DNA of 62,949 nt, filler included, from Welwitschia mirabilis (GCA_051453625.1; 5 parts of one record of this genome joined end to end with filler, not necessarily neighbours in it), one strand, 5' to 3'. Counted from the whole stretch's first letter, positions 9,793 through 47,776 are shown. The notes: a model not told the origin generated them from the sequence alone. Program-made: numbers and translations.

Positions 9793-9892
9793 NNNNNNNN
9801 NNNNNNNNNNNNNNNNNNNNNNNNNNNNNNNNNNNNTTAATTAATTAANNNNNNNNNNNNNNNNNNNNNNNNNNNNNNNNNNNNNNNNNNNN
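9793..9892. other. Artificial scaffold linker (44N-TTAATTAATTAA-44N)
   Basis: The same 100-bp structure recurs at 22714-22813, 43488-43587 and 60432-60531. The 12-mer has stops in all six frames. Confidence 0.95.
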
Positions 9893-22592: not shown

Positions 22593-23038
22593 TGTGAAAC
22601 CCCAAATTTTTACAGTTACAAACTTCAATAGTTTACGCTCTGATACCAAAATGTAACGTCCAAAATTTCTAAAGTTGAAAATCTTCATAATTCACTTTGA
22701 CGCTCAACCCAAANNNNNNNNNNNNNNNNNNNNNNNNNNNNNNNNNNNNNNNNNNNNTTAATTAATTAANNNNNNNNNNNNNNNNNNNNNNNNNNNNNNN
22801 NNNNNNNNNNNNNCAACTGCATAAGTAAATAAAATATATCATTTCCACCACAATAGCATATAAAGATTGGGTACAAACATTTACACAAAACGGTATTCAT
22901 ATCGCAACTCAATAATATAGCATTTCAAGGACATATCAATTACCACAATTGGGGTTTTAAGTAATTCAATATTTTTCAAATATTGAATTAAACATAAACC
23001 TACAAATTTATAAGAAAATAAAAAATGTGGACGTGACA
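22593..23038 (-). mobile_element. Internally deleted or gap-collapsed LTR element with tRNA-iMet PBS
   Basis: TG...CA ends (tgtgaaacccc...ggacgtgaca) flanked by CTTCT on both sides. gctctgatacca (reverse complement of TGGTATCAGAGC) at 22637-22648, followed by tgtaacgtcc at 22652. Contains a scaffold linker. Confidence 0.6.
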
Positions 23039-29000: not shown

Positions 29001-30786
29001 GATGATTTATTGCCCCACTTCCCCCACCTCCCCTGCCTCTTCACAAATTTTTTTTAAAAGGATGACTGATATGATTTTAAAACTTAAAAATAGCATTATA
29101 TAATTTGTATCAAATTAACACAATAGAGTTTTTAAAGATCAATTAACATAAAAGATCATTAAAAAAAAGTAAAGCATAGACATTTTATGTTCACGATGAT
29201 TACAATCGTAACACTTGACATGGAAAGTGTTATTCCTATAGAAATATTGTAGTTAGACTAATTGAACTTAATAACAAAAACCATTAGAAAAGCAGTAATA
29301 TTAATGCTCAATAATATAACTCCATACATTATGTAGAAAAACCTTAGGTACATAGTCACTATCCATATAGAATTCTTTGTTATTAAATGCCAAAGAATGA
29401 CATAAAAAAGTGAGAGGGTGTCAAACTTGAAACTTTAGTGATCATAGCTTCTTCTCTGGAATACAACCATAATGATCTACTGGTTGGCTCTGCTTGTCCC
29501 TGCTACTACTCCCCCTATGCACTAACTCATGTGCCTATATGGCTTAGCCTCATGGCTGCTCACTATGGTAGTAGCCATCCCGGTCTATCCAAACACGATA
29601 TCTGTAATTGGATCTGGGTCGTTAAAATGAAAGATTTAATTACTCTCAAGGCCTCATGCTATGCTAAGTAGGTCATCTAAAAGTTGAAACTCATTGCTTT
29701 CTAAGTGGAGAATGACTGTCCCACTAGATGGACTACCATCCTATTAGTAACGACTCCTAATATATACACATTAAATAAGTGCAAAAAATATAAATAACAA
29801 AAATCTATTACATTATTCTTTTAAGATAATGTAAGGAGATGATACTACTTAAATATCTATGTGTGTTGAAGAACTCAATACTAGTTAGCGATTAATGCAA
29901 CTTAGTGAACGAATTGATATAGAAACTTAAGAAACTTATAATAAGAGGCTTTTAGATCTTCAACACCAACATCCAAAAAGAAGGATATGTAGATCATCTG
30001 CCACTAGAATAAAACAACTAAAATTTATGATGATAATTTACACAGTGTCCTTCCTTGCATTTTTTTGTGGCAATGGTGGTTGCCATGGTTAAGATTGTGG
30101 GTGGGGTAAAGCTTATGCAAAACCTCTTCATATCATGTATTTAGAGAGATGGGATAATTATCAGGTTCCTTCTTTTGAAATACCTGGGATGACTAGGATA
30201 ACTAGTTCTTGTTGCCTTAAGAGTGGCTTATTTCACCTCTCATGACATTATGGTATTGTAGTCTTCATTACCAAAGCTACATTTTACCTCTCAACCTCTC
30301 AAAAATATAACACTCGCCACCATTTGAGATCTTGCTCTGAGTAGCAAAACTGAAATAACCTCAGTTGTGATCTCCATGCATCTATAAAACTCCTATTAAA
30401 TGTTTTTTAAAAAAATACAAATTTCAATAAACTAATCTACTTACTTATTAAGTAATAAATATAAATTAAAAAGTTTATGTTTATATAAAAAATTACGTTG
30501 AGATATTTAAGAAGTTTATTTAAACGAAGTATAAAAAACTTCATTTTGAAGAAGTACAACAAGCTTTAAATACATAGATAGAATGTTACAAAGAACTCTG
30601 AAACTCAATCCCTTGCATTACTCGATTTAAGAGTTTTAGGAATAATTTTGAAACTGAACATGAAGAGTTAGACTTCCATTTTGTTTCATACTTTTCATAA
30701 TGCAAACTCCTGGGCTGTAACATTTTTCCATAACCTCAAACGGCATACGACTTGAATAACAACCCGCCTTTTTTCTAAGGCGTCGA

Positions 30787-30828
30787 CACGTGAATCGACT
30801 GAGAGCACGGTGGAGCGTTCCCGGCAAA
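30787..30828 (+). promoter_or_regulatory. Putative NSE1 proximal promoter motifs: G-box and E2F-like site
   Basis: CACGTG at 30787-30792 and TTCCCGGCAAA at 30818-30828 (minus strand TTTGCCGG fits WTTSSCSS). Both lie in a local CpG-retaining island upstream of the ATG. Confidence 0.4.
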
Positions 30829-30950
30829 CTTAGAATTTGAGATACAGCGCTCCAGACGTCAGGGGTGCTTTGGGAAGAGCCCATTGGTTTGAGTAGAGAG
30901 CATCGCTATGCAAAACCAGTGAAGTAAATCTCTTCAAATTGGAGTGGAAG

Positions 30951-31065
30951 ATGTCGAGGTTGGATGCAAGGCACCATACGCTAATCCAGGCGCTTCTGAA
31001 CCGCGGGCCGTTGCACGAGAAGGAGGTCAACTTGCTTTTCAAATCAGTATGTGGAAATCCAACGG
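30951..31065 (+). CDS. NSE1: NSE1 (SMC5/6 complex subunit), coding exon 1
   Basis: MSRLDARHHTLIQALLNRGPLHEKEVNLLFKSVCGNPT matches the plant NSE1 N-terminus (HHTLIQAL.SRGPL.EKE). Donor G|GTAAG, phase 1. Confidence 0.93.
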
Positions 31066-31151
31066 GTAAGATTCTGAAAACACTTAAGCAAGTTGCAGGC
31101 CATGGAAGTGTCCTTTTGCTGTCGGAATTTCAGTTTTTGCAACTTCGTCAG

Positions 31152-31348
31152 GTGCGCGGGAAAGGGATTTTCATGAATATATAGGAAATATCAACCGGGA
31201 GCTTGATTTCTTGCATCTGGAAGCCCGAGCAAGCAGAAATCAATACGACGGCGAAGTTTTTTATGCCATTGTCAATAAAGTGGCCGATGAATATTCCAAA
31301 TTCGGAACCCAGCTTTCTCCTGCCCAAATTGCCTTTTTCAAGGCCGTG
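31152..31348 (+). CDS. NSE1: NSE1 coding exon 2
   Basis: CAG acceptor. Reads (G)ARERDFHEYIGNINRELDFLHLEARASRNQYDGEVFYAIVNKVADEYSKFGTQLSPAQIAFFKAV. Donor GTAAGC, phases consistent. Confidence 0.93.
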
Positions 31349-34300
31349 GTAAGCATGAAATTTTCAAACTTTTCTGGTTTACTCCTACTAATTTGCGGAC
31401 ATTCTGTTTGGAATTGCCTTTATGATCGTCCCGTAAGTTCTGACCAGGAACTTAAATAATTTTGTTGTTCACATTAGATAGTTTTGTCTTTGAAGTAAAT
31501 TCTCTTTTTTACGTCTTTGAAGTAAATTCCCTTACTCCTTAATCTCTCAGTAGCTATAGAAATTATTTTTCGTTTACCCTAAGTGTTTCTCGGAGGATTT
31601 GAGTAGTTTTTGCTTTGCCTGTAAAAGTACAGTCCTGGACATTTTGGTCCTTTATCATTCTTAGTCCAGGCAATGCTTGGGTAAGCTATTATTTCAAAAC
31701 TTTTACCAATATTTAGTGTTGCTGTCCAATAATCCATCACCTAAGTATGGTACTAAAGTAGTGTTAGCCAGCAGTCACCTAACTGTTGCGAAGAGGCCTC
31801 TTTAGGAGGTGAAATAAGGGAATTGTCAATCATTCTAAATGTTCTTGCACCTTCCTCATCTCATAAGACTAACACACCTACACATTTCTTGCAAATCTAT
31901 GTCTTCTATCTTATACCAATAACTTTGTAGGCATCATTAAAGTCGGTGGTTGCAATATGATATTTCATCTGTCTTTTAGGGTGCCTATCTGAAGGAATAA
32001 AATCACGATTTTGTGTATTCAGTTATCACCATTTACCCTTTGATTATTTCTAAAAATGTGCACAGTTATCAATATCACATTTGCTTTACTTTGGTTCTTA
32101 CACAAACCAGTTAAAATTTGGTTATGTTTGCTCATGGGCTTGTTTCAAACAGTACAGTGTCATCTCCAATTTACAACCAAGGCTCAGATTTGAATTTGCG
32201 AATGCTTTTTCATTGCTGCATGCAAATTCTTTTTGCAAATCTCTGTGTAAGGAAGTGCTTTCAATGTCTGACTGCTGAAGTCCAAGATTGAAAGATGCAA
32301 TTAAAACAAGCATAAGTCTGATGGAGGAATGCTTCATAAGAAGGGTGAAATTTTAGTGAATTTCACACTTGGCTTCTTTGCAAATCTGTTACAAACCTTG
32401 CCTTCTAATACACATCTCCATTAAATCTTTTTTTACTTTTCTCTTTTTCTTTTTTAGCCTAAAGAACCATTTGTTATAATGGGCATCTTTTTAGTTAGGA
32501 ATGGTACCCAAATCCCAATTCTTGATCTTCAAGAGAAACTTCATCACTTCATTGTGGTTGCCTTATAATCCTTTGGGTCTTCATTAATGTATAGTTTTAT
32601 GTACAGACCTAGGTTCATTATTACTAATTAGATGTCTGCTAGGCATTTTGGAGTGTCCCACTTAATGAAAAGGTGTTTTTGCATGTAGTTGAATTAGAGT
32701 TTGAGGTTTCATGTGTTCATGCTTAGGAAACTCAAGTAGGATATCCTTTTATGAACTACTTGTTCAAGTGGATCTTCAATCTCTTTGTGATCTAGGAAAT
32801 CAATAGGCTTTTGCCATATGCCAGGCTTAATTGCTTCCTTGAATTAAGTAATTTGTTTCTTCTTTAACAATCACATCCCATAATCTGACTTTCTTCTAAG
32901 TTTTCTATAAGCTATATCTGGTCATATCTAAGAAACACACAAAGTTCAATAATTTCCAACTTGAACTTTTTACATATGCCTCACATCCAGACATTTTGAG
33001 ATGTGAGTGTGACATTGAACTTCCGTTTCAAACTAAATATAGCACTTCACCATCCAAAGTCAAATCCTATGTCTCCATAAGTATGTTAACTATAGTGATT
33101 GTTATCTTTCCTTAAAAATTCGTGGACATAGATGATTCAAATATTGGAGTTTGAGTTCTTTCCTGTACTATTCTAATATGTCTTTCTGCAATTTTGTTTT
33201 GTTGTTCAGTGCCATGAACAATTTTCTTCAGTAATGCTTAAACTTTCTTGTAGAGTTGCTTGAACTTTTGGGAACAATATTTTCTTTCATTGTTTGTATT
33301 AGGTGGTTGACCTTCTTTCTACACGTGTTTTCAACATGGCCCTGAGCATCTTATAATTTTTAAAATTCTAATCATTATCATTCAAGGGATTAAGAAATAT
33401 TTTGCTATTCTAGCTTTAATGATGGGAAGAAAATAATTTACATCCCTTAAAGACACAAGGGAAACTATATTGACAAGTTGTGAGTGCACAATATGCTTCA
33501 ACACTTTTCAGGAGCATTCCTCTTGAAATTCACATATTTATTTTTGCCAACAGCACAAGAAATCAAGCTGCTAAAAACCCTTGATGTAATACCTTTAAGC
33601 TTCCTTGACTAATATATTCAATTCTTTTGTGGCAAAATAAAGAATCTACCTCCTAACTGATTGATGCAAGGCCAACAGAAGTAGCCCTCAAATAGTACAT
33701 GGAACCTTCCTTGGTTTCTTTAACATGGATGATGATACCCTTGCTAATTTCCATTTACCAACAAAAATAACAATTTTCGTCTGGTTGGCTTTTAGAAATG
33801 AGTTTTTTTTTTTTTTTTTTCAAAAGATAAAACACAATGGATATTTGTTAAGGTGAGTGACTAACAATTTAAACATATACACCTTAAATATCCAATTTGA
33901 TGAATCTTGTATGCAGCATCATCATCCAAGTATATCACTTCCTCAGGGATGTCTATATATTCGTGTTAGGACCGACATTGAATGATGCCTCTAAATCAAG
34001 TATTCGTTACGGAAGATATGGAATAAGGAAAAATAGATTAACTTGCATACTTGCATCATGTGCAACTAGCCTAACTCTATCCTCATGTCCGCATTTGATC
34101 GATGTACATTAGCCTCTTGCTTATCACTTCATTTGTTTTTGATTCCATTTGACCTAAGTGGTTCCTTGAACTCTAGTGTCTTGTTTTCCTTAGAAGTGGT
34201 AAAGCATGTGATGTTTGGTTGTTAGCTAGCTAGGTAGGTATGGACAAAGGGTGCATAGCTGCAAGATATGCTCTTAGATTACTGAGGGACAAGAGAGTCT

Positions 34301-37174
34301 AATCAAAAGGAGAGTAATTCTTAAAATCATAGGAAGCCTATCAAATAGATCCTATTTGTAGTTCAAAGACAACAGAATGAAGATATTGTGATTATTTTCA
34401 TAAAAGTAATCAATCTTGTACTAACATATGTTCAAGACCAAGACTTGGGAAACAGATGCTAGAGAAATTAGAACCACTTCGTCAATTTTCTAGTATTACA
34501 CGTTGCAAAAGTGGTTTGTAGCAGGAGTCCTACCATGATACTGGATGTTGTTTATCATGTCCTATCTTAGCCTAGAATTACAAAATGTATAAACAAAATG
34601 TATGGAATCCACAGAGCCATCTATTATAGAGAAATCCAGAAACGATAAAATGTACCAAAACTGTGCTTTCGTATTGTCCTACTGCTCATGATCAGTCTTG
34701 AGTATGAAACACATAGTCTATGAATTTAAGGAGGTGTATTAGAATAGTAAGACGATTTTAATAAACTTGTTCATCCTCGCAAAATGATGTTTTATGAAAC
34801 TAATTTTCTTTTTTATATTTGCTGTTTTGCTCTCTTTTCAATTTAATGAAGTATTGGTTCTTTAACAATGTTCCCAATTTGTGTACCAAGTGTTCTTCTT
34901 ATGATGCTGCCTCTTGGAGTGACACAAAGAGGATTTGAAAACATACAAAAATATCTTGTACTCCATTCTTCCTATGGCTTGCTAGCAATGATAAGTTGTA
35001 TGAGGGTAGAGGATTTTGTTGGCTTCCTTTTTGGACAGCCTTATAACACCTGGGGCCTTTGAGAGAAAAGGGGGATGATAATAATATGACAGAGGTTTGG
35101 TTATGCAAGTTCCTTGCCTCATAATTGTTGATGTAAGAACTCAGGTTGCAACAAACTTCAGCAACACGCCTTGGGAAGAGGATGTTTAGTAGGTTCAGAA
35201 GCTTAGGGTGCTTTCACTTTGGCATGAAAAAGCCATGGAACTAGCTTAGCTGGCATTCAAGATGTGGTGTGTTAGCATAAAAGATTTGTTTATATGTGTG
35301 CTTTGTGACCAGAGCTAGAGAGAGAATAAAAAACAGAGAGAGCACAAAAGATCAAGGAAATAGGGTAACAGTATGCAAAGTAAAGATCATTCAAATAGAA
35401 GTTATTTTTGATGAATGATTGCTTCTGCAATATGTTGCATGTTTAGAAGTCACTGTTTGATGGACATGAATGAGATTTCACTCTCAAGCCTTAATGTATG
35501 GGTGATCTACTAAAGTGCTTATTCTAATTTCATCTTATCATTAATTATGAGTGGTGAAATTGTTAATGAGTTTCATTGTTAAAGAAATCTCATAAACTCA
35601 TAATAATGAAGGCACTTTAAATGGCAGAAAATAATTCATTTGTTTAAGAAATGAATTGGAATTTACATGAAATAGGTCAACCTCTCAGTATCATGTAATT
35701 AAAGTGGGGTATTTGCATTCATTGCTTCTGAGGCTAAAGTTGTTCCATTCAAAACAAAAATATGATATTATGATGGGAGCTTGAACTTCTTTGAGGCATT
35801 CGAATATGACAAAATTCTTTTGCATGAAAATATAAGAGTACAAGAAGAGGAACTACACAAACTTTTGAAACTTAATTTATATTGCAATTTAAATTGACAG
35901 AAACCCTCACATTTTCCTTTTAGAGAACTTTATCATTCATTGTAACTATGAATCCACTTTGGCAGTTGTGCTAATCAGCACCAAACTTCAAACTAAGAAA
36001 TGAAAAGAGGTGTTGCCTTTCTATAAAAGTAAAACTGAAAGCTTCTGCTTAGCAAGATTAAGCTTTTGGAACATGTCTTAAAAAACATTGTATGGTATTA
36101 AGTCAAGGAAAAACCTTTTTTGTTTTAAGATCTTAAAATTTTCTGAAATTAGTGACAAAACCCATTTAATTTCTAGATTTCAGTCAGATTTGCGGATTGT
36201 AAAGGGAAACAGAAAACCTTTTAAAGACCAAATAACAGTTTCAAGAAATCAATCAAATAGGAAACAACAGAAAACCTGTATTGAAGAAGCTTCTGAGACT
36301 AAAAGGAGGCTTGAAGGCTTAAATCCCAGTAGGAGAGAGCCGATAGTATAATTTCAAATAATTATATGTGGAAATTGAAAGCTTAGAAAAATTAAAAAAA
36401 TGTAATAACAACAAGGGAACCTGACATAAATGAGGTTGAAGAGGGACTTCTGAAAGTTCTTTGCAGGCCATGAAGAGGCAACTCAAAAAGCAACATGTGG
36501 AATCAGGGGATGGGCCATAACTTGCGAGTGCACACTAGGGAACTTTGAAGCAAAAAGAACTTAGTCTTAGAGGCATAAGGGGACATGTCCAAACCATATT
36601 GAATATTAGTGGCAAGGGTGAAATGGAGCTCACTTTTAGAGGATTAAATGCAAGCTTGTGACATAGGAAAGAAAATGCTTCAAATATTCATTGGGTGAAA
36701 AAAACATGCTAGTTATTATGAAGCCAAACTTTCTATTTCCCGTTTTATGTTAAAAGTGTTGATAGTGAAGCCAAATTTGTTATTTAATGTTGTGATGTTA
36801 TGTTTTAATGTTGGCTGTTTTGTAATGTTGTAAAAGGAGAATATGTTATTAACTCCTTTGGGTGATTTCTTTTCTTTTCTTTTTTTTTTTTTTACAAATA
36901 TGGATAGGGGGGTGGGGGTGTAATTTGAGTTTGTTTGAAAACCCAAACCCAAAAACGATTTAAAGGTTGCTTAAGGGGTTTGTAACTCGATACATTTTGC
37001 TCCTGGAAGAAGATTAAGAGCTCTGTTAGCTTCCCATGTTTTCCCTCCAAGGGTTTCCACGTAAATTCTCTCTGTGTGTGTTATCTTTCGCTTGCTGTTT
37101 CGATTTCTTTAGCACTAATTTACGGTTGAAATTTGTAACAATTGGTCTCAAAGGGAGATTTGAATTGCTGGCAT

Positions 37175-37500
37175 GTGGTATTGTATACCGCCACACTGAG
37201 GGTCATTAGAAGGAAATTTAAAGAGTGCACTAGTGTAAGGCATGTGTTGCAGAGTTATGGGGTTTGGTGGGAACTTGAGCATTTGATGGTGGAAAGCTCC
37301 CACTGTTTGTCAAAAGTGTTCATCAAGCGTTGGTATATTGGGGGTGCAGAGGAGCTCCTAGGGCTATATGAGGAAGGAAGACGTGCAACGCTCCTTGAGG
37401 GAATTCCCATTGGTGTTGTAGGGAGGGTTTGTGATGTTGCAGGGAATTCCCACTAGTTTTAGGTGCACTAAATGCAACAAAACTGTTAAATGTGTTTGTG
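37175..37500 (+). pseudogene. 4CxxC-type glutaredoxin-like gene fragment (left arm)
   Basis: VVLYTATLRVIRRKFKECTSVRHVLQSYGV...KVFIKRWYIGGAEELLGLYEEGR...LLEGIP...VCD, then RCTKCNK in another frame. Matches the plant GRX-like domain plus Cys-rich tail. Confidence 0.85.
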
Positions 37501-38619
37501 GAGAGAGAGTTTTCTATCCATGTGATGGTTTTTCATTGTATAAGGGTTTTATATGTCAAAATTTCTTAATTAACTAAGGAATAAAACTATTATACAGGAA
37601 AACAAGTAATTCGGAAAGCATTTCTTTATGTTTTGGCGTACCTCTTGATCTCGTGTACTTCACTCTGTTTTTAACTATTTGAATTTCATTAAATTCATAT
37701 TTATGAAAGCGATTTTGAAATAAGGGTTACTATGACATGTCCCAAATTGGAACATGGTAGGTAACAATATGCATACACAATATATTAATTGTTATTCATT
37801 TGCACATGGTTTTTTTGTTATGATAATTAACTAATTAATTTTGGCCGAGAGGCTAATCTAGAGCTATTGATTTGTGTGGGATTGGAGAAGCATAACACAA
37901 CCCTTCACCTTTCCAAATTTGTCTTTACAAGGACCATTAAAATTTAATAAAGTAAAAAAATAAAGAATGCAAATTTTTTTTAAAAAAACACAGATGCCCA
38001 GAGAAAACTTCTAGGCACTTACATGACAAAACAAGCATTAGGATTAACCTTGTTTACACCTTGCTGTTCAGTGATGAGAATCCTAATGCTTGTTTTCTCC
38101 TGTAGCTGCTTGGAAGTTTTCTCTGGGCCTTAGTAAACTTTTTAAAGTTTCTTTATATTCTTTATTTTTCATTTTATTAAACTTTAATAGGCCAGGTAAA
38201 GACAAAATCGGGAAGGTAAAGGGTCGTGTTATGCTTCTCACGTCCCAGGCAAATCAGTAGCTTGGGATTGGCCTCTTGGCCAGAATTATTTAGTTAATTG
38301 TAATAACAAAGAAGCTACAAGCAAATTATTAACATATTGCTTATGCATATTGTTAATTGCCATGTTCTAGTTTGAGAAATGTCATGGTAACCCTCTTGTT
38401 CCAACTTCCTTTCACAAATATGAATTTAATGTAATTCAAATAGTAAAGAATAGAGCGAAGTACACATGATTGAGAGGTATGTCTAAGCATGAAGAAATGA
38501 CTTTCCTAATGACTTATTTTCCCACAAAATAATTTTATTCCTTAATTAATTAAAAGAAATTTTTACAAACCAAACCCTTGTATAATGAAAAACCATCACA
38601 TGGACAAAAAATTATTAGT

Positions 38620-38989
38620 CTCTCCACAAAGACATTGAACATTTTTGGTGCATTCAGGGTACCTAAAAGTACTGGGAATTCCCTGCAACATCACAAACCC
38701 TCCTTGTAACATCAGTGCGAATTCCTTCAAGAAGCTTCACAAGTCTTCCCTATTCATGAAGCTGTAGAAGCTCCTTTGTGCTGGCAATAAACCAACCCTT
38801 GATGAACACTTTTGACACACTACGGGGCCCTTCCACCATCAGTTGCTCAAGCTCCCACCTGAATGCCTGATGCTTTGGTACATCTCTTTCACTCACCCAA
38901 ATCCCATAACTCTCCAAGACATGCCTTACATTGTCGTACTCTTTAAATGTCCTTCTGATGACCCTTAGTGTGGTGGTATACAATACCAC
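38620..38989 (-). pseudogene. 4CxxC-type glutaredoxin-like gene fragment (right arm)
   Basis: VVLYTTTLRVIRRTFKEYDNVRHVLESYGIWVSERDVPKHQAFRWELEQLM...KVFIKGWFIASTKELLQLHE*GRLVKLLEGI, then RYPECTKN, resembling RCPECNEN. Confidence 0.87.
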
Positions 38990-41900
38990 ACACTAGGGTT
39001 TGTTGTGTGAGGGCCTTTTCTTGCAGAATTTGATGTCTCCACACGTCAGGGAGCAAAGCAAGTGAGCATAACAAGTGGAATGGAGTTGTCTTTTAGAGCA
39101 ATCAGAACAAGCATGATATTTCTATAGAAAATGGAATGCGTGTCGACAAGAGATAGATGGGTGGAGTCGAAAATTGGGGAAACTAGAAAATCCAAATGGA
39201 AGATGGTCTCTACTTCAAGGATCGCAATACATTCTTAAATCAAAAGAGAAATTGAGGGCAAGTTCTGGATTGTTAGATGCTAAATGGTTGAAGCAATACC
39301 TTAGTATAAAGTGGGAGAAACTCATTCGAAAAGCTCTCACCATAATACATCCTTGTCTTGGTAGTGGAATACCGGGGACATACAAAGGAATCACCAAGGC
39401 GCATGTCTTGTGGGGAGCTCTAAACAAAAGGTTGAGCAACCCACTAGTATAAATAAATACTATATGATTAACAAGGTTTTCAAAATCAAAATGAAGGAAG
39501 GTACACTTTTACAAAGCCATTTGGACAAGATGAATGGCTTGCTTGCTTAGATTGAGGATTTGGGCATAAATTTCGAAGAAGATCTTAGGTTAGTCACTAT
39601 TTCGAGTTTCTTGCCAGATTCGTGGGGACTACCTTGACTGCTGCTTTTAGAACTTTACCATCCCTCACTACTATCATCTCAAAGTTACTAGATGCTGATA
39701 AGACCAAAACAATGGATGCTCCTAATGAAGCATTGGCTGTTAGAAATGACTGATCTCAATCGAGAGGAAGATGGCACGGTCACAGACAAGGTAGAGGGGA
39801 GGGCTGCAAATAAGGACCTTAAATGTTGGTATTACAAGAAAAAAGGTCACGTGCTCAGAGACTGCGACAAATTAAAGAATAAACTTAGAACAAAAAGATA
39901 AGGGCAATAGTAGTGGTAAAGGACATGATCAACAGGACTATGAAACTAGTTAAGATCAGATGTTGTATTGATTGCTAGCGACAATGAGGTGAACATTTCA
40001 TGGTATTCTGCTCCCAACATTTGGATTTTGGATTTTGGATTCTGATGCATCATTTCATATTTGTCTAGATGCTTTTGTGTTTTGTACGCACGTTAACACT
40101 TCAAATCAGTATGTGTATTTAGGTGACGATAGACAATGTGATATCAAAGGAGCCGGATTTGTCCTATTGCAAGGATTTGATGGCAAAAGGTTATTACTAA
40201 AAAGATGTTTGCCATGTACCTCGACTCGCAAAGAATCTAAGTTTGGCAGGTCAACTTGATGCTTGTTCTGCAGTCTTTGGAGCTAGAGGCTAGAAAATCA
40301 CAAAAGGAGCGTGGAGTTTGGCATGTGGATAGAAAGAAGGTACTTTGTACTTGTTGCATGTAGATGCAGTGGGAGGCGTGGTGGCTGCGACTGATTATTG
40401 AGACAAATTTTTTTGGCACAAGAGGCTTAGGCATTTGAGTAAGACAGGTATGAAGGTACTTAAAAATTTGCTGCCAAAGTTTAATTTTGTTTTTTTAGAT
40501 TTTTGTAAAGATTGTGTTGTAGCTAAGTGAAAACATGAGAACTTCAAGAGATTTGTTTCTGATAGCAAATGTTGTCATAAACTTGATATGGTCTATTCTG
40601 ATATTGTTAGACCCATGCATGTTAAGTTATTAGGAGGCTCTTCGTCTTTTCCAACTTTTATCGATGATTTTAGTTTGTGACTTTTATCAATGGTTTTAGT
40701 CACAAGATAGGGCTGTTTATGATTCCTTTTAAAAACAAAGTCTTTGAAATGTTTAAACACTTTAAAGTTAGAGCAGAGAAGGAATCTAATTGTACTATTA
40801 AACATTTGTTGACAAATAATGGAGCTAAATATACCTTTAAAGAGTTGAAATGTGTTGCAGGGACGATGGAATTGTCCATCCTAGGAGACCACCATACACT
40901 TCTCAAAATAATGGAGTGGGTGAAAGATACAACAGAACAATGTTGGAAAAACCGCATTCATTGTTACAACATTTTGAAGTTCCAAAACACTTCTGGGAAG
41001 AAGCAGCAACAACTATTGTTTATCTCATAAACAGGTCTCCTTACATTGCTTTTGAAGGCGACGTTCCAAAGTTTGTTTGGAGTGGGAGAATGCCTTCTTT
41101 TTCTTACATTGCTAGAAAATGTTTGTTTCAGGGATATGATCGTGATAATCTTGGCTATCTGTGGTGGGATCCTGTAGATGGGAAAGTGATTAGATCTCAG
41201 GATGTTGTTTCTCATGAAGATCAAATGTTTTACAAATTGCAGGAAAAGGACAAAAAGGATGAAATCCTTGTTCTTTACGTTCCTCTTAGATATTCTAGAA
41301 TTTCAAATGGGAGCAATGATGGCAATGACGAAGCTGAACATGATTCGTCTGATGATGCTAGTGAATAAAAAAATGTACCTCTTGATGCACAATTGTCTAA
41401 TTCTTCAGATAGTGAGAATGTAGAGCCACTTACGTCTGCACACTGGGTTAGTATGTCTATTTGTCCAACTAGACCACTTGTTAGGTATTCTCCATCTTTA
41501 CATTGTATTTTGTATATTGATAAAGGAGAACCCAAGACGTTTTAGGAAGATATTCCCTCTTCTAACGTTAAAAAATGGAAAGCTGCTATGGAAGAAGAGT
41601 TGGACACTTTAAAGCATAATGACACTTGGGAAATGGTTTTGCCTCTTGAGAAGTGAGCATTGTGTAACATATGGATGTACACAATTAAGGAAGAGGCAAA
41701 TAGGAAGAAGCATTACAGAGCAATGCTAGTTGTAAAAGATTTTGGGCAGAAACTTGGTATAGATTTCACTGAAATATTTTTAATTGTTGTAAAACATTCT
41801 TCTATTTGTGTCATTCTATTTTTTGTTGCTATCTTAAATATGGAATTAGAGTAGCTAGATACCAAACCTGCCTTCTTGCATGATGATTTAGAAGAAGAGC

Positions 41901-43413
41901 TATACATGAAAGTCCTTGAAGGATGTAATGCTAATTGAGAGAACTTAGTTTGCAGGTTGAAGAGAAGCTTGTATGGGCTAAAACAAACACCAAGGGTGCA
42001 TGCAAAGAATCTAATATCTTTATGCAACAACAAAAGTATGATAGATTTGATGTAGATCATTATGTGTACCTTCATAGACAAGCTTTTGCTAAGATAACGA
42101 TATCATTGTTCTATGTTGATGACATGTTAATTGCAGGGAATGACGTCCATGAAATTAGAAGGCTCAAAGAGGAGATGGAAAGGCCTCGCAAAACAAATTT
42201 CTTGTTTGCAAAATTTCTAGAGATAGATTATGAGGCAAGTTGTGGCTAAGCTAGACAAATTGCATTGGTAAGGTTTTGAAATGCTTTAACATGGCTGATT
42301 GTACTCCTATTAGCAGTCCTTTGGCAAGCCATTTTCAGTTGTCTTTGGAGGATTGCCCAAAATCCAAGGAGGATTGTAGAAAGATGGAAAAGGTTCCATA
42401 TACTTTTGTAGTTGGTGCCTTATGTATGCTACGGTTTGTACAAGACCAAATATTTCNNNNNNNNNNNNNNNNNNNNNNNNNNNNNNNNNNNNNNNNNNNN
42501 NNNNNNNNNNNNNNNNNNNNNNNNNNNNNNNNNNNNNNNNNNNNNNNNNNNNNNNNNNNNNNTAGTTGTTTATGTTGATGGTAACTATGTAGCTTGTAGG
42601 GACAACAAAAAGTCTACCCTCGGCTACATATTTTTAGTGGGAGGTGGTCCTATCAACTAGATGTCTCGTTTGCAGAGGAACATTGCTTTGTCTACTACAA
42701 AATCAAAATATATTGCTTTGGCTGAAGTGGCTAAAGCAACAATCTGGTTGAAACAATTACTTTTCTGGTTTGGATTGAAACAATCACAATATGTGATTTA
42801 CTGTAATAGTCAAAGTGCCATTCATTTAGCTAAGAATGCATCTTATCATGCCAAGACAAAGCATATTGATGTTAAATATTATTTTATCAGGTAGGCATTC
42901 AAGGAGAGAAAGCTAAATATTCAAACAATGTATACACAGGCAAATATTGCAGATTTCTTAACCAAGGCAGTGATAGGAGTGAAACATCAATTGACTTTTC
43001 ACAATATATATTTGGAGCTGTGGTCTAAAAGCTTGGAAGTAAGCATCTCTTATAAGTTGTGTAAAGAGCTATTCTTGAAGACATGTCAAATTTGTCTTGA
43101 AGTGGGAGAGTGTTGTTAGTGAAGTTGAATCTTTTGTTTTTAATGTTGTAACGTTATGTTTTAACATCGGTCCCATTGTGATGTTGTCAAAGGAGACTAT
43201 GTTATTAACTCCCTGGGGTGTTATCAAGGGTAGTGGGGTGCGGGGCCGAGGTTGGCAGGGGAAGGGGAGGGGGGCAAGCAGGTTCTTGAGTTGGCTTGAA
43301 AACCCTAACCCTAAACCTATTTAACGATTGCTTAGGGGCTTCATTTGTAACTTGATTCATTTTGCTTCTTGAAGAAGATTAAGAGCTTTGTCTACTTCGT
43401 GTGGTTTTCCCGC

Positions 43414-43487
43414 TGAAGAAATATTGGGAGAAACCCCTTTTATTCGATATATCAAAGTATTTACAATACCCACTTATTTATAGGACA
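43414..43487 (-). mobile_element. Probable end of another LTR inserted into the Copia 3' LTR
   Basis: LTR-LTR homology stops abruptly at tgaagaaatattgggag (minus strand ends ...ttcttca). The segment runs into the linker gap. Confidence 0.45.
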
Positions 43488-43587
43488 NNNNNNNNNNNNN
43501 NNNNNNNNNNNNNNNNNNNNNNNNNNNNNNNTTAATTAATTAANNNNNNNNNNNNNNNNNNNNNNNNNNNNNNNNNNNNNNNNNNNN

Positions 43588-43815
43588 GTGCTGTTGCACT
43601 GTTGCTTAAAGGAACCAAGAGGCTAAAGGATTTTTGCTGCCTCTTGTGAGTGGAGTAGGCTGGGAGAGCCGAATCACTATAATTTGGTATAGTGCATTTG
43701 TTTCATTGTCTTTTGTATTCAATTGTCTAATTTAATTTGTTTTGTCAAAAGAATTTTTTAAGAACCCTATTCACCCCCGCCCCCCTCCTCTCTAGGGTAT
43801 TTGGTGATCCTAACA
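43588..43815 (+). mobile_element. Sirevirus-like LTR 3' end
   Basis: Ends ccctattcaccccc...tctaggg...tcctaaca, the reverse-complement counterpart of the terminus at 58283. Confidence 0.65.
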
Positions 43816-44004
43816 CTTCTAAGGTAAAGCAACAATCTTTCCCATAATGAGCAAGAATTAAGAGAAAGACCAATTTCATCGAATAGATTCCCTAAGAAAG
43901 ACCAATTGCATGCACTAGATTCCCTAAAACAGCATTGTTTCCTATGATAAGGAGGATATTGATTTAACTGAACATGATATCGCTCTCATAAGGTTTGGAA
44001 AAAG

Positions 44005-44106
44005 TACTGGGACTCAGATCGCATGTATGACGTATCCTCATGCCAATGATGTAGATACTGGGACTCAGATCACATGTATGACGTATCCTCATGCCAATGA
44101 TGTAGA
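44005..44106. repeat. 51-bp tandem duplication
   Basis: tactgggactcagatc(g/a)catgtatgacgtatcctcatgccaatgatgtaga occurs twice, with one mismatch. Confidence 0.9.
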
Positions 44107-45962
44107 TCTACATACAGTGCAAGTAGCTCAGTTGGTTACACCTACCTTGCAAAGACAATAAGCTAAGAAGGAGGAGTGGTTCCTTCAAACTGATTTTCTT
44201 TGTTTCCCCCATTGACCATAACTAATTATGCAACCAAATGAAGACAAACTAATCATAAACAATCAAGAATTCTAGACTTAATATGAGTTGACAGCCTCCA
44301 AACAGGATCATAGGATTGATTGGTTTAAAGGAAGGGCCCTAGACATGGGTTGGATGATTTTGTACTCACCATAAAAGATAAATCTGTGCTAGTCCTAGAC
44401 TGACATCCAAGATGAAATATAATGCTATGTGAAAAGCCCTGGTCAAGAGGATTTCTGTGTTGCAAGTAAGGGTTACCCATAGGAGGCCTAGAAACAATGA
44501 GCAATGCCAACTTATTTAGACTCCAAGGCTACTGACTATTATGCAAAGTGACAATGGAAATGGAAAACTTATCGTGAAATGATAAGGCAAATTTATTGAA
44601 AACAAAATCTATGCTATTAGAAAACTTGAATTAGCATAGAAATAAAAACGCCAAGGTGAAAGTTAAACCTTTGTAAATGATTCGAAGGCATGTTTCCAAA
44701 TGACGCATCCGAATATCATGTTCAAAGAGTTGGCAACATTGTTAGTGCTGAACATGGTACAGAACAATTGGGTTATTATTAACCACTTAGCTTAAAAGAA
44801 TCCTTAACAAATTACTATTCAAAATATTCATGCCTTCTCACTAAACACCTCCATGTTTCATCACTTCCAGATATATGATCTTGGGACACATAACTGATAG
44901 CACTGGTAGGAAGAAGCTTATGTCATGCAGTGGACTCAACTATATTTTTACATCAAGGGCATCATGTGATAGTGAATCCTAATAATTTCTTGGTTGGATA
45001 ATTCAAAAATTTGGCAACACATATTTTCTCCCAGTTATTTTCTAAAATAATTTGCTGAGCTGCATCGAGATATCGCTGACTTGATGGCAATATGTCTTCC
45101 TGTCATAAGTCATCCACGAGATGCATCTATGTGTTTTAGTTGGAGATTTGACAGTAATGAGGCTATAATTATGTCATTTTCTGATCTCTTTTTACAGCAT
45201 TACATGGATGTGTTTGAGCTTGTTTTCTATTCATCTAAATGTTTTAATTGGAGATTTGCTGGCAATGAAGCTCTATTTCTATCACTTTATATGGATGATA
45301 TACTGCTTTTCAGTTTTATCATGTCAACTACTCAGAGGCAAACCGGTTATTGTTTTACAAGAATTCAAAGGGTTTCTCATTAAAAACGGGTGGCCACTAT
45401 AGAACTAGATATATGTTATTTAAAAAGAAAAAGTTTATTCAGTGAATACATAAAAGAATAGGAAAGAATGCAAGTTTCATCTTAGTCTCAAGGCTGCTTG
45501 TTCTATTATTTCAACATATAGTGGAGCCAGTGCAACTTCGATTGTTGGTGCCACTTGAACAGTTGGTGGTTTGATTAGGTTTGGGTCATAATCATCTTTG
45601 GTGATGGGTGTGAACATCTTTTAAGTGTAAACATGGAATACAAAATTTATATGTATGTAAACTGAAACAAAGCATACCAAAGTTATCACTTTGCAGCAAA
45701 AGTAAAATCGATTATCTGTGTATCTTCCCTTTGGAGTGTTACTTGTCTGGTTTTTGCTGTAATAACACTCTTACATTTTTTAAAGGAGTTTTATGGTTTC
45801 TGACTTTATGCTATTGGATTATGAGATTCTAGTTTAGGTGTAAGTTTTTTTTAAAAAAAATTAATTTAAAAAAAGCACAGTCCCTCCTGAATCTTTATCT
45901 TTATGTCCTTTCATACAACTCAGATCCTTGCATAACAAACATTTTATGTTATTTGACTTAAG

Positions 45963-46043
45963 ATAGAAGCAATTCTTCAAGATCCATCTGGGAGGGGACA
46001 GATATCTAATATTGAGGCATTAAACATCCGATTAGATACCCAG
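45963..46043 (+). CDS. NSE1: NSE1 coding exon 3
   Basis: AAG acceptor. IEAILQDPSGRGQISNIEALNIRLDTQ matches NSE1 IEAI.QD...G.IS...ALNIRL..Q. Donor CAG|GTAATT. Absent from the ORF track. Confidence 0.9.
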
Positions 46044-46224
46044 GTAATTCATTGTAAACATTTTATGATTTCTTTGCTCCTATGCATTATAAGCTAGGTT
46101 GCCATGTCAGCCTGCAAAGAGGGTGTGTGTGTGTGTGTATGTGTGTGTGTCATATTTCCTAGAATGCTGCATGGTACATTTAAAAATTGTTAATATTGAT
46201 TATTATTTTGATCTCCACTATCAG

Positions 46225-46452
46225 GCAAGACAAGAGTCACAAAGCGATCAAAGTCAGATTCCACTGGCATTCCGCCAATTCTCAATGGCCCAAAAAGAAA
46301 AAACTCTTGAAGAGCTTATAAAGAATCGATGGTTAAGCTCTATGGATGAGGGGAGGGTTGGTTTAGGAGTTAGAGCTTTCATTGAACTGAAAAACTTATT
46401 CAAGAATTTCGATGTGCCATTTTGCGATGTATGCAATGAAGCAGGTATCAAG
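46225..46452 (+). CDS. NSE1: NSE1 coding exon 4 (second winged helix and first CxxC of the RING)
   Basis: CAG acceptor. Reads ARQESQSDQSQIPLAFRQFSMAQKEKTLEELIKNRWL...GLGVRAFIELKNLFKNFDVPFCDVCNEAGIK. Donor AAG|GTATTG. Confidence 0.93.
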
Positions 46453-46780
46453 GTATTGCGATGGACGTGTTAGTCTCTTTAACATGTTGCTTCTGTATTT
46501 TTTTTGGACATCTTATTACTGATGCAAAATGAACTGGAAATGACTGCTATTCTGCTTTGGATTCAATTACATAATGATTGTTACAGTGCTGTTGAACTAT
46601 TTCAGTACATTGTCATATCCTTAAGAGAAGTATTGAATAAATGATGTATGAGACATGCTCTTAGCATGAATGTCTGATGATGGTAATAATAGGCGCAGGG
46701 GAATGACAACTCTTGTTCTGTATAGACAAATTTTGTTTTATTTGTTTGTTTGTTATACTTTTATGCTAATACCATATGGT

Positions 46781-47133
46781 TGTAATAGTTGGTTAAATTA
46801 TACAACCCTTTGGGGTTTTTATTAAATTAAAGTTTTAACTTTATAAAAGGGGAATATGTTGGTTAGGAGCTATTTAGGGTTTGTTAGTTCATTACCCACC
46901 TCCATCCGATATACACCCCTCAAGCTTTTGAGGAGGGTGTTTTGTAATGTGTGCCTCATCGGTTTGTACTCTTAGAAGCTTTCCTCTCTTAGTCAAGAGT
47001 TTTGCAGTGCTTCATTGAGGATGTAGTTTAGAAAGGGGCCAACGTCATTAATTTTCTTGTCTGTTTTCTTTTCTGCTTGCATCTTTTTATTCTGGTTTTA
47101 TTATTGCTGCTGCTTGTGATAAGAATACCATCA
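46781..47133 (+). mobile_element. Probable solo LTR (Copia type)
   Basis: TG...CA ends. Shares the block ggatgtag.tt.gaaaggggcca....cattaa with the LTR-like region near 52968-53003. TSD only partial. Confidence 0.5.
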
Positions 47134-47776
47134 CTAGTTCTATGTTGTGGTAGCCCTCTAGGAATCTTTGGTGTTTGAGTTATGACAGGTTGTCTATATT
47201 TAAGTTTGAGATCTTCTTATAAAGTGTTAGTTCATAAACTACAATGAGTATATTGTTGAGCAATGCTTCCTATCTGAAACTGGATTGCAGCCAGGTTCCA
47301 TTTACACTATTGACTACGAACTTGCTTGCAAATGGTATATGATTAGAGATCCATTTTTTGCCCATTGTTGCTGCTACCTTTGCCTTGATTTAGTGACGAT
47401 TACTCTTTTTGAGGGGAGGATAATTCATGCTCAATAGGAAGCATCTCTTTGCCCTTTAGACACTAGCCCAATGCTCTCTATCACTTCTAGATTTTATGTT
47501 CACCATTTTCTAAATATTGATATGTTAGAAAAGCAAAGCTGGACTCTCTCTCTCTCTCTATATATATATATACATATATATCTTATTAGTATGCTTTTCT
47601 ACTTTATTTGTGTAAAGGTCCTCTGCCTTCATAATGTTGTTGGAGATATTCTTATGCAACTTATGTGGGTCAGGTGGCACATCAATGTTTATTCATGACT
47701 GTTTTAGAGTTTCAACCCTGATATGAACCTTTCAAAGGAAGGCATAGGTTAGGAAGAGGTATATTGTAATCATAGT

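What the first reader, a model, noticed from the sequence alone, without database searches (positions are those of the whole stretch)
37168..38996. 1.8-kb hairpin built from an inverted glutaredoxin-like gene segment, sitting in the leader of an intronic Copia element
Seen: two ~880-920-nt arms around a 33-nt loop, starting about 14 nt after the Copia PBS and ending before gag. Each arm begins at the first strand of a GRX domain (VVLYTT), runs through the Cys-rich tail and continues into ~550 nt of non-coding sequence, arranged tail to tail. Established: plant 4CxxC GRX-like proteins (the family that includes THRUMIN1) have this motif set, and inverted gene duplications are a known origin of plant hairpin siRNA and MIRNA loci. 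Inference: either the NSE1 pre-mRNA or the LTR transcript would contain this fold-back and could yield small RNAs acting in trans on host GRX-like genes. If other family copies carry it, it would be a retrotransposon-borne host-silencing cassette.
Basis: partly seen in the sequence, partly recalled or inferred. Interest (0 to 1): 0.9.

Follow-up and report, generated by a model that had tools for sequence, protein, structure and literature searches.

The report
Decayed glutaredoxin-fragment palindrome in dead Copia
A real 1.8-kb inverted duplication of the tail end of a glutaredoxin-like gene sits in the leader of an old, broken Copia retrotransposon inside an intron, and it looks like a decayed relic of one gene-capture event, not a working silencing device.

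Summary
Arms 37174-38045 and 38079-38990 flank a 33-nt loop. They align end to end at 80% identity. The + strand RNA would fold at -1036 kcal/mol against -440 for shuffles. An independent DNA run has a contig crossing the loop.

Both arms derive from a plant Glutaredoxin + GRXCR-C type gene, but each has four in-frame stops. The Cys-rich tail is not recognisable by profile.

The hairpin lies about 19 nt after a decayed PBS and before gag of a degenerate Copia. The Copia lies between two NSE1 exons on the same strand.

Arm divergence (K2P 0.234) matches LTR divergence (0.275), so the duplication is about as old as the insertion.

The GRX end of the right arm is single-copy at 85% likeness or more, while the Copia body is repeated 10-200 fold. 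Two cDNA RNA-seq runs show almost no reads on the hairpin. Small RNAs, the donor gene and older copies could not be tested.

Verdict: an ancient, probably one-off capture plus snap-back duplication, now decaying neutrally. A silencing role is unsupported but not excluded.

The parts
36757..37140 (+). 5' LTR of the Copia element
   Evidence: Aligns with 43108-43410. Direct-repeat pieces are 79% and 81% identical, spaced 6356/6365 nt. It starts TGTTG and ends ...TAACA.
37143..37154 (+). Decayed primer-binding-site-like sequence (TGGTCTCAAAGG)
   Evidence: Best match in 37131-37186 to the recalled 12-nt Copia PBS motif: 9 of 12. It lies 2 nt after the LTR end.
37174..38045 (+). Left arm: sense copy of the gene fragment (glutaredoxin-like remnant, then about 475-530 nt non-coding)
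   Evidence: Carries a 39-nt deletion relative to the right arm.
37172..37510 (+). Left-arm glutaredoxin-like coding remnant, 113 codons with 4 stops
   Evidence: Translation P0002. tblastn E 1e-17 to 1e-22 with six plant homologues. No Pfam hit.
38046..38078 (.). 33-nt loop between the arms
   Evidence: Innermost inverted pair I6 has 33 nt between its arms.
38079..38990 (-). Right arm: the same fragment on the minus strand
38615..38992 (-). Right-arm glutaredoxin-like coding remnant, 126 codons with 4 stops; the first 80 are open
   Evidence: Translation P0001. Pfam Glutaredoxin 26.9 bits on the open part and 25.4 bits on P0001, cut-off 22.9. phmmer found 582 proteins at E<=1e-3, best 1.1e-24. 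PDB 3uiw Glutaredoxin 2, E 1.1e-4.
38997..39160 (+). Rest of the leader, up to where similarity to other family copies begins
   Evidence: X5 depth is 7.3 in bin 38727-39159 and 810 in bin 39160-39592.
39161..43107 (+). Degenerate Copia gag-pol, with many stops and frameshifts and a 106-N gap at 42457-42562
   Evidence: Fragmented ORFs. Pfam Pol_BBD 39993-40259, SH3_retrovirus (integrase C-terminus) 40841-41368, RVT_2 41657-41854 (33.6 bits) and 41935-42249 (29.1 bits, below the 31.6 cut-off). Integrase precedes RT.
43108..43410 (+). 3' LTR, only partly present; it departs from the family at about 43408-43414 and the contig ends at 43487
   Evidence: Alignment. Loose ends at 43408/43414 in all four runs. 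N44-TTAATTAATTAA-N44 spacer from 43488.
31157..31357 (+). Upstream NSE1 exon (Pfam SMC_Nse1 positions 39-106)
   Evidence: 55.4 bits, cut-off 23.3. A spliced joint 31064->31151, GT..AG, appears in three RNA runs. 70-73% identity to the named gymnosperm NSE1 hits over 95-100% of the exon.
46225..46389 (+). Downstream NSE1 exon (Pfam SMC_Nse1 positions 139-194)
   Evidence: 36.6 bits, cut-off 23.3.

Best explanation
This is a genuine, very old palindrome. The 3' part of a plant glutaredoxin-like gene of the Glutaredoxin + GRXCR-C type (the GRX domain, the start of the Cys-rich tail and about 0.5 kb downstream) was copied once and duplicated in inverted order around a 33-nt spacer. It sits in the untranslated leader of a Ty1/Copia element, about 19 nt after the PBS. 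The most likely origin (inferred, not shown) is a reverse-transcription accident. RT switches template to a co-packaged non-element RNA, then snaps back on the nascent strand, in or near the replication cycle that made this copy. That would make it a property of this insertion and not of the family. Since then the LTRs, gag-pol and both arms have decayed at about the same neutral rate inside a long NSE1 intron. Any + strand transcript crossing it (NSE1 pre-mRNA or an LTR transcript) would fold into an imperfect stem of about 870 bp. At most this would feed the generic siRNA and DNA-methylation silencing that acts on repeats. It is not a demonstrated or dedicated silencer of host glutaredoxin-like genes.
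For: Structure and its reality: plus independent contigs across the loop and the right border. Gene origin: with homologue architecture. Pseudogene state: 4 stops in each arm, a 13-codon deletion in the left arm, no GRXCR-C profile hit in 6 frames, and arm-to-arm dN/dS of 0.62 over 105 codons, with observed syn/nonsyn changes of 16.5/39.5 against about 12/44 that I worked out by hand for neutrality. Same age as the insertion: K2P for the arms is 0.234 (95% bootstrap 0.198-0.273, n=866) and for the LTRs 0.275 (0.207-0.362, n=255), with P(LTR<=arms)=0.16. One-off, not family-wide: in DNA run X5 the bin 38727-39159 (GRX end of the right arm plus leader) has depth 7.3, like the unique intron bins (0-10), while the LTR bins have about 500 and the internal bins 100-1200. 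No second copy of the hairpin, LTR or internal region exists in the 62.9-kb window. No target-site duplication: the flanks are ...TTGCTGGCA and CACTAGGGT.... No stable transcript: X16 and X19 raw cDNA reads give 0-0.15 depth in the three inner hairpin bins, against 3.1-8.3 (X16) and 1.3-7.6 (X19) per strand in the two NSE1 exon bins. Precedent: 3% of maize Sirevirus (Copia) elements carry gene fragments, 64.2% of them 3' exons (bioRxiv 10.1101/777037, passages read). Template switching between unrelated co-packaged RNAs is a recognised capture route (PMC13317346, passages). About 400,000 captured fragments per gymnosperm genome are reported (PMC13477047, passages including the abstract).
Against: The donor gene was never seen, so its exon structure, the mRNA-versus-DNA origin and the time of capture are all inferred. 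There is no poly(A) trace at the inner ends of the arms. The three inner bins 37428-38726 have X5 depth 42-62, about 7-10 times single copy. Contigs of depth 21-35 join 37585 to 38454/38467 on opposite strands. So arm-like sequence, at least its non-coding part, exists elsewhere in that genome, and I cannot say in what context. Reads were laid at 85% likeness or more, so sister copies as old as this one (expected about 75-80% alike) would be missed. The depth test therefore excludes only younger hairpin-bearing copies. The two RNA runs are cDNA/oligo-dT libraries read to about a quarter, and they cannot see small RNAs. X14 (RNA by guess; it holds a spliced NSE1 contig) has a contig over 38609-39157 at the same depth as the exon contig (5.4 against 5.57), so some RNA or DNA signal over the right arm exists. 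The longest identical run between the arms (31 nt, 37422-37452) is somewhat longer than chance (P=0.03, uncorrected).
Confidence: 0.6

Rival explanations
1. The palindrome arose at the DNA level after the Copia had integrated. A double-strand break in the leader was repaired by copying ectopic filler DNA from a glutaredoxin-like locus, with fold-back priming producing the inverted copy.
For: There is no target-site duplication at the borders. A short 33-nt spacer is typical of fold-back synthesis (general knowledge, recalled). Arm divergence (0.234) is nominally lower than LTR divergence (0.275), which would fit an event after insertion. There is no poly(A) at the inner ends.
Against: The difference in divergence is not significant (P=0.16). 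The position just after the PBS, in the one long non-coding stretch of the element, and the 3'-end bias of the captured part fit reverse-transcriptase capture as reported for Sireviruses. No evidence separates the two routes directly.
Confidence: 0.2
2. It is a working hairpin-RNA locus. The fold-back, transcribed within NSE1 pre-mRNA or from the LTR, is diced into siRNAs that act in trans on glutaredoxin-like genes, possibly as a cassette carried by a Copia sub-lineage.
For: The stem is very stable and has 5 unbroken helices of 21 bp or more. It lies on the transcribed strand of an expressed gene: the spliced NSE1 joint appears in 3 RNA runs. One 31-nt run of perfect arm identity has P=0.03. 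Arm-like sequence is present elsewhere in the genome. Inverted pseudogene pairs that yield siRNAs are known in rice (PMC2708354, passages), and Sirevirus LTR palindromes are siRNA hotspots (PMC4728375, abstract).
Against: The arms are only 80% alike and have decayed like the LTRs. Both carry stops and indels. The closest proteins in the library are only 39-55% identical to the arms, so near-perfect 21-nt matches to a present-day target are not shown. The GRX end is single-copy at 85% likeness or more. Rfam gives only sub-threshold, structure-driven matches at the tip (MIR9486, 34.2 bits against a gathering score of 100).
Confidence: 0.07
3. The whole 1.8-kb unit is a separate DNA transposon with very long terminal inverted repeats (Pack-type or foldback-like) that carries a gene fragment and jumped into the Copia leader.
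For: The unit is inverted repeat from end to end. Part of it is repeated elsewhere in the genome: X5 depth is 42-62 in the inner bins. Pack-type elements often carry gene fragments.
Against: No target-site duplication flanks it. The repeated part is the centre, while the terminus that could be measured (the GRX end of the right arm) is single-copy (7.3). That is the reverse of a transposon family, whose termini are its most conserved and most repeated part. There is no internal unique region beyond 33 nt.
Confidence: 0.08
4. It is an assembly artefact, a chimeric or falsely palindromic join.
For: The assembly is a draft with many N runs and contig-join spacers, and one gap lies inside the Copia.
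Against: The arms differ at 20% of sites and by several indels, which artefactual palindromes do not show. A contig from a run of another organism label crosses the loop with 1 difference, and a contig from a further study crosses the right border. 31-mer shares of 0.83-0.87 appear in 6 runs of 2 studies, one of which may be the assembly's own source.
Confidence: 0.02

Closest known systems
Gene fragments captured by Copia-type LTR retrotransposons (maize Sirevirus captures, Muyle et al., bioRxiv 10.1101/777037; maize Bs1, as reviewed in PMC13317346)
   Same: A non-functional piece of a host gene sits inside an LTR retrotransposon. It is the 3' part of the gene, as in 64.2% of Sirevirus captures. 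Template switching to an unrelated co-packaged RNA is the accepted route.
   Different: Here the fragment is present twice in inverted order, forming a stem of about 870 bp, and it lies in the leader next to the PBS. The 2026 review of plant gene capture does not contain the word 'hairpin' (0 occurrences), and my searches listed no such case among the papers shown. No family-level amplification is shown here.
Hairpin siRNA and young MIRNA loci born from inverted duplication of a gene (Allen et al. 2004, seen only as a reference entry; rice inverted pseudogene pairs, PMC2708354)
   Same: Two inverted copies of a gene fragment whose transcript would form a long imperfect stem. The rice examples have 155-185-bp stems at 83-96% identity and do yield small RNAs.
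   Different: No small RNAs, no target and no transcript were shown here. The stem is five times longer and as diverged as the weaker rice case. It lies inside a retrotransposon inside an intron.
Palindrome-rich region of maize Sirevirus LTRs (Bousios et al. 2016, PMC4728375)
   Same: Hairpin-forming sequence carried by a Copia-type element that can be a template for hairpin-derived small RNAs (abstract).
   Different: Those palindromes are short, element-derived, lie in the LTR and are conserved across the family. This one is host-gene-derived, 1.8 kb long, lies in the leader and is, as far as tested, confined to one copy.
Plant glutaredoxin-like proteins with a C-terminal Cys-rich region (THRUMIN1 type; Pfam Glutaredoxin + GRXCR1-2_C)
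   Same: The arms' reading frame aligns with the GRX domain and the first part of the tail of such proteins. THRUMIN1 is described as having a glutaredoxin-like domain and a Cys-rich, putatively zinc-binding C-terminus (PMC8566215, passages).
   Different: The arms are dead fragments. The N-terminal two thirds of the protein are absent, stops are present, and the Cys-rich domain is not detectable by profile. I did not test whether THRUMIN1 itself is the nearest family member.

Membership tests
Ty1/Copia LTR retrotransposon | Two long terminal direct repeats flanking the internal region | tested here: met
   36757-37045 aligns with 43108-43410, 77% identity over 255 alignable columns. The end of the 3' LTR is missing at a contig end.
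Ty1/Copia LTR retrotransposon | Copia-type reverse transcriptase (RVT_2), with integrase placed before it | tested here: met
   Pfam Pol_BBD at 39993-40259, integrase SH3 at 40841-41368, RVT_2 at 41657-41854 (33.6 bits, cut-off 31.6).
Ty1/Copia LTR retrotransposon | Primer binding site next to the 5' LTR | tested here: inconclusive
   TGGTCTCAAAGG at 37143-37154 matches a recalled 12-nt motif at 9 of 12 positions. The motif is from memory. Its reverse complement also appears in a loose-end consensus of related elements.
Ty1/Copia LTR retrotransposon | Target-site duplication | not testable with these tools
   The 3' end of the element falls in the contig-join spacer at 43488-43587.
Glutaredoxin + GRXCR-C gene (as a derived fragment) | Glutaredoxin domain | tested here: met
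   The right arm passes PF00462 at 26.9 bits (25.4 on P0001), cut-off 22.9. The left arm has no Pfam hit but gives tblastn E 1e-17 to 1e-22.
Glutaredoxin + GRXCR-C gene (as a derived fragment) | C-terminal Cys-rich domain (PF23733) | tested here: not met
   None of the 3 frames of either arm hits at E<=5. Homologues P0006 and P0004 score 68-69 bits. Pairwise alignments reach only query residue about 119.
Glutaredoxin + GRXCR-C gene (as a derived fragment) | Intact reading frame | tested here: not met
   4 stops in each arm and a 39-nt deletion in the left arm.
Plant hairpin-siRNA / proto-MIRNA locus | Long self-complementary fold-back | tested here: met
   MFE -1035.9 kcal/mol, z about -55, 771 of 779 pairs across the loop.
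Plant hairpin-siRNA / proto-MIRNA locus | Transcription across the fold-back | tested here: inconclusive
   Depth is 0-0.15 in two cDNA runs, each read to about a quarter. One contig in X14 covers 38609-39157, but that run's nature as RNA is a guess.
Plant hairpin-siRNA / proto-MIRNA locus | Small RNAs from the stem and a complementary target | not testable with these tools
   No small-RNA run is reachable, because the 31-letter word index cannot hold 21-24-nt reads. No whole genome is held.
Known miRNA families (Rfam) | Score at or above the family's gathering threshold | tested here: not met
   The best hit is MIR9486 at 34.2 bits against 100. The alignment is pairing-driven with little sequence identity, and both strands hit.
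Family-borne captured cassette | Same insert at the same place in other copies of the family | tested here: inconclusive
   Bin 38727-39159 has depth 7.3 against 100-1200 for the element body at 85% likeness or more. The inner bins have 42-62. Copies older than about 15% divergence would be missed, and there is no genome to search.

The most novel reading that the evidence does not exclude
This is the surviving copy of a Copia sub-lineage that carried a host-gene palindrome in its leader. Alternatively, it is an intronic hairpin still processed from NSE1 pre-mRNA. Either way, a retrotransposon would have delivered a ready-made hairpin RNA against glutaredoxin-like (GRXCR-type) genes, and the extra arm-like copies seen in organism B would be its relatives.
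Probability: 0.06. Interest if true: 0.7.

Novelty: new variant of a known kind. Interest (0 to 1): 0.3.

Why it matters
If such palindromes form during retrotransposition, then one accident gives a mobile element a complete double-stranded RNA trigger against a host gene. That would be a shorter route to trans-silencing than the antisense or RDR-dependent routes usually invoked for captured fragments. This case shows that the structure can arise and persist for a very long time in a gymnosperm-type intron. The evidence here points to a decayed single copy with no sign of activity, so its value is as a dated example of capture plus snap-back, not as a regulatory device.

Tried and rejected
- Whole-genome search: no genome is held for this window. 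The donor gene, copy number and other family copies could not be examined directly.
- Word-indexed protein search with the open 80-aa right-arm frame: nothing among longer proteins (12 candidates, none scored) and nothing among proteins of near length. The full HMMER scan then found the family.
- Earlier notes of this scan: nothing by place, by sequence or by words.
- RNA holders: no RNA holder was listed in the run index.
- Exact 25-mer scan of metagenome contigs: 0 matches.
- Rfam: only sub-threshold generic miRNA-hairpin matches at the stem tip. Rejected as membership.
- End of the Cys-rich tail: I looked in other frames. Two weak candidates are FCPCDGFSLYKGLVCKNF-stop and RCTKCN. tblastn E-values are 3.8-6.8 and there is no Pfam support. 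Left undecided.
- Search for a conserved miRNA-like duplex: the longest identical run is 31 nt (P=0.03), and there are 2 runs of 21 nt or more against 0.55 expected (P=0.10). Not convincing.
- Target-site duplication at the hairpin borders: none seen.
- Reads: the first read-laying request failed because of a 12-nt island between N runs. The shorter stretch 30500-43487 was laid instead, so splicing into the downstream NSE1 exon could not be observed.
- Supplements of the cited papers were not available. Lists of capture events there might include palindromic cases.

Full report
**1. The observation**

The inverted repeat is real and far beyond chance.
- The repeat finder returned 9 collinear inverted segments (31-241 nt, 77-87% complementary). 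They tile 37174-38045 and 38079-38990, and the innermost pair is separated by 33 nt.
- BLASTN of the region against the window aligns it to its own reverse complement from 37174 to 38990.
- MAFFT aligns the left arm with the reverse complement of the right arm end to end. Identity is 80.1% over 866 ungapped columns (100 transitions, 72 transversions). There is one 39-nt gap in the left arm and a few short indels.
- The 1829-nt + strand RNA folds at -1035.9 kcal/mol, against -440.5 +/- 10.8 for 12 dinucleotide shuffles. Of 779 base pairs, 771 cross the loop. The longest unbroken helix is 45 bp, and five helices are 21 bp or longer.

Misassembly is unlikely.
- The arms differ at a fifth of their sites.
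- A 1133-nt contig from a DNA run labelled as another organism (X5) covers 37543-38675, across the loop, with one differing letter.
- A 549-nt contig of a further study (X14) crosses the right border (38609-39157) with one differing letter.
- 31-mer shares of 0.83-0.87 were found in six runs of two studies. One of these may be the assembly's own source.

**2. What the arms are**

- Read from the outside in, both arms open with (H/C)VVLYT(A/T)TLRVIRR.
- The first 80 codons of the right arm (minus strand, 38753-38992) are open. A 78-residue reading of that frame (38759-38992) passes Pfam Glutaredoxin (26.9 bits, cut-off 22.9).
- The 126-codon read-through with stops as X gave 582 proteins at E<=1e-3 and 240 at E<=1e-10 in the full HMMER scan, best 1.1e-24. 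It also hit a solved Glutaredoxin 2 (3uiw, E 1.1e-4).
- tblastn of six top hits against the hairpin hit both arms: right arm E 1e-26 to 1e-29 (45-55% identity), left arm E 1e-17 to 1e-22 (39-49%).
- The two best named relatives come from Cryptomeria japonica and Ginkgo biloba. Such proteins carry Glutaredoxin followed by the GRXCR1-2_C Cys-rich domain at their C-terminus.
- The match covers residues 330-440 of a 474-residue protein. The arms therefore hold only the last third of the gene, plus about 0.5 kb beyond the coding homology.

The copies are dead.
- Each has four in-frame stops.
- The left arm lacks 13 codons and has no Pfam hit.
- No frame of either arm hits the Cys-rich domain profile at E<=5.
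- Arm-to-arm dN/dS is 0.62 over 105 codons, which is not clearly different from neutral.
Alignments reach the first CxxC...C stretch (query residue about 119), and most cysteines are replaced.

**3. Where it sits**

- LTR pieces 36757-37045 and 43108-43410 align at 77% over 255 columns.
- Two bases after the 5' LTR lies TGGTCTCAAAGG (37143-37154), 9 of 12 identical to the Copia PBS motif as I recall it.
- The hairpin begins about 19 nt later and ends at 38990.
- Similarity to other family copies resumes at about 39160.
- The internal region is shredded into short frames. It still gives Pol_BBD, the integrase SH3 domain and RVT_2 in that order, which is the Copia order.

The element lies between two NSE1 exons on the + strand.
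- SMC_Nse1 profile positions 39-106 fall at 31157-31357 (55.4 bits), and positions 139-194 at 46225-46389 (36.6 bits).
- A spliced GT..AG joint 31064->31151 appears in three RNA runs.
- One caution: four N44-TTAATTAATTAA-N44 blocks look like contig-join spacers (my reading of the pattern). One of them (43488-43587) separates the Copia from the downstream exon. The order and strand of the exons are consistent with a correct join.
- The NSE1 exon is 68-73% identical to its seven hits. The three that carry a name (70-72%) are Wollemia, Taxus and Cryptomeria.
- The window has 32.7% G+C and a CpG observed/expected ratio of 0.30.
- The source is therefore probably a gymnosperm that is not close to those conifers. 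This is an inference.

**4. Age**

- K2P between the arms is 0.234 (95% bootstrap 0.198-0.273; n=866).
- K2P between the LTRs is 0.275 (0.207-0.362; n=255).
- The bootstrap probability that the LTRs are not more diverged than the arms is 0.16.
- LTRs are identical at integration (established knowledge). The arms were therefore nearly identical at about the time this copy integrated.
- A palindrome carried for long in an active lineage should have arms more diverged than the LTRs. One made much later should be clearly less diverged. Neither is seen.

**5. Is it a family feature, and is it expressed?**

No genome was available, so I used one lay of public runs on 30500-43487 at 85% likeness or more.

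DNA run X5:

| Region | Summed contig depth |
|---|---|
| Unique intron bins | 0-10 |
| LTR bins | about 500 |
| Copia internal bins | 100-1200 |
| Bin 38727-39159 (GRX end of right arm plus leader remnant) | 7.3, single-copy level |
| Three inner hairpin bins (37428-38726) | 42-62 |

- The inner bins are 7-10 times single copy. Two contigs of depth 21-35 join 37585 to 38454/38467 on opposite strands. This is what a third, single-arm-like copy with a deletion would give.
- So something like the non-coding inner part of the arms exists elsewhere in the genome, while the GRX end does not at this stringency. I cannot say what those copies are.
- This pattern argues against a transposon with long terminal inverted repeats, because the terminus that could be measured is unique and the centre is repeated.
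- It also argues against young hairpin-bearing sister copies. It cannot exclude sisters as old as this one.

RNA runs X16 and X19 (raw cDNA reads, about a quarter of each run):

| Region | Depth per strand |
|---|---|
| Two NSE1 exon bins | 3.1-8.3 (X16), 1.3-7.6 (X19) |
| Most unique intron bins | 0 |
| Three inner hairpin bins | 0-0.15 |

- X14 holds a spliced NSE1 contig and also intron contigs of equal depth. One of these lies over 38609-39157. Its nature is uncertain.
- None of these libraries can show small RNAs.

**6. Mechanism**

Shown: the structure, its gene origin, its place, its age relative to the LTRs, its decay, and the lack of a stable long transcript in two libraries.

Inferred: the route of origin. 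I favour capture during reverse transcription, by a template switch to a co-packaged non-element RNA followed by snap-back copying of the nascent strand.
- The insert lies in the leader next to the PBS.
- It is the 3' part of a gene, matching the 3'-exon bias of Sirevirus captures (64.2%).
- It has no target-site duplication.
- It is as old as the insertion.
- Abnormal template switching between unrelated co-packaged RNAs is a recognised route.

A DNA-level fold-back repair soon after integration fits nearly as well and cannot be excluded.

As for what it does now, any + strand transcript through it would form an imperfect double-stranded stem and could be diced. With 20% arm divergence, stops in both copies, a dead host element and no transcript signal, the most likely present role is none beyond the ordinary silencing of repeats.

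**7. Comparison with what is known**

- Capture of gene fragments by Copia-type elements is documented in maize: 204 of 6,200 Sireviruses, and Bs1.
- Capture is reported as massive in gymnosperms, about 400,000 fragments per genome.
- Hairpins made of inverted pseudogene pairs that yield siRNAs are known in rice.
- Palindromes in Sirevirus LTRs are siRNA hotspots.
- What I did not find is a host-gene palindrome in an LTR-retrotransposon leader. I looked at the papers listed by four searches and at the passages of a 2026 review I read, which contains no 'hairpin'. That is absence from a limited search, not proof of novelty, and supplements were closed.
- Rfam gives only sub-threshold, pairing-driven matches at the stem tip.

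**8. Verdict**

The functional idea is unsupported so far and is made less likely by the age, the decay and the single-copy GRX end. It is a structural variant of a known phenomenon and of modest interest. A genome-wide copy survey and small-RNA mapping would settle it.

Noticed in passing
window 9793-9892, 22714-22813, 43488-43587, 60432-60531: Four identical blocks of 44 N, TTAATTAATTAA, 44 N. They look like spacers used to join contigs into a pseudomolecule, so order and orientation across them rest on scaffolding. Fourteen other N runs of 3-807 nt show a draft assembly.
   Followed up: partly
window 43408-43487: The 3' LTR stops resembling its family at about 43408-43414. All four runs have loose ends there. 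Reads coming from the left carry ...GCTCTGATACCA just before 43414, which is the reverse complement of a Copia-type PBS. The last bin (43057-43487) has an enormous depth (30,663 in X5; 45-48 per strand in RNA run X16). A very abundant, expressed element in the opposite orientation seems to abut the LTR at the contig end.
   Followed up: partly
window 32131-32523, minus strand: A second Copia-type reverse transcriptase remnant (Pfam RVT_2, 35.2 bits) lies in the same NSE1 intron, on the opposite strand and unrelated in sequence to the element studied.
   Followed up: no
window 37428-38726: In DNA run X5 the inner, non-coding part of the hairpin has 7-10 times single-copy depth. Contigs of depth 21-35 join 37585 to 38454/38467 on opposite strands and skip 38310-38410. 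Arm-like sequence of unknown context exists elsewhere in that genome.
   Followed up: partly
window 44005-44106 and 45121-45288: A 51-nt unit is repeated in tandem at 98% identity, and a 60-nt pair at 77% identity lies 108 nt apart, both downstream of the Copia in the same intron.
   Followed up: no
window 31357-46225: SMC_Nse1 profile positions 107-138 were not found in the stretches scanned: + strand frames of 22814-32000 and all six frames of 32000-36750 and 43588-48300. A small exon may have escaped the scan, or it may lie in a gap or inside the unscanned 36751-43587.
   Followed up: partly
whole window: G+C is 32.7% and CpG observed/expected is 0.30 (0.26 in the hairpin). This strong CpG depletion fits long-term cytosine methylation of a repeat-rich genome.
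   Followed up: no
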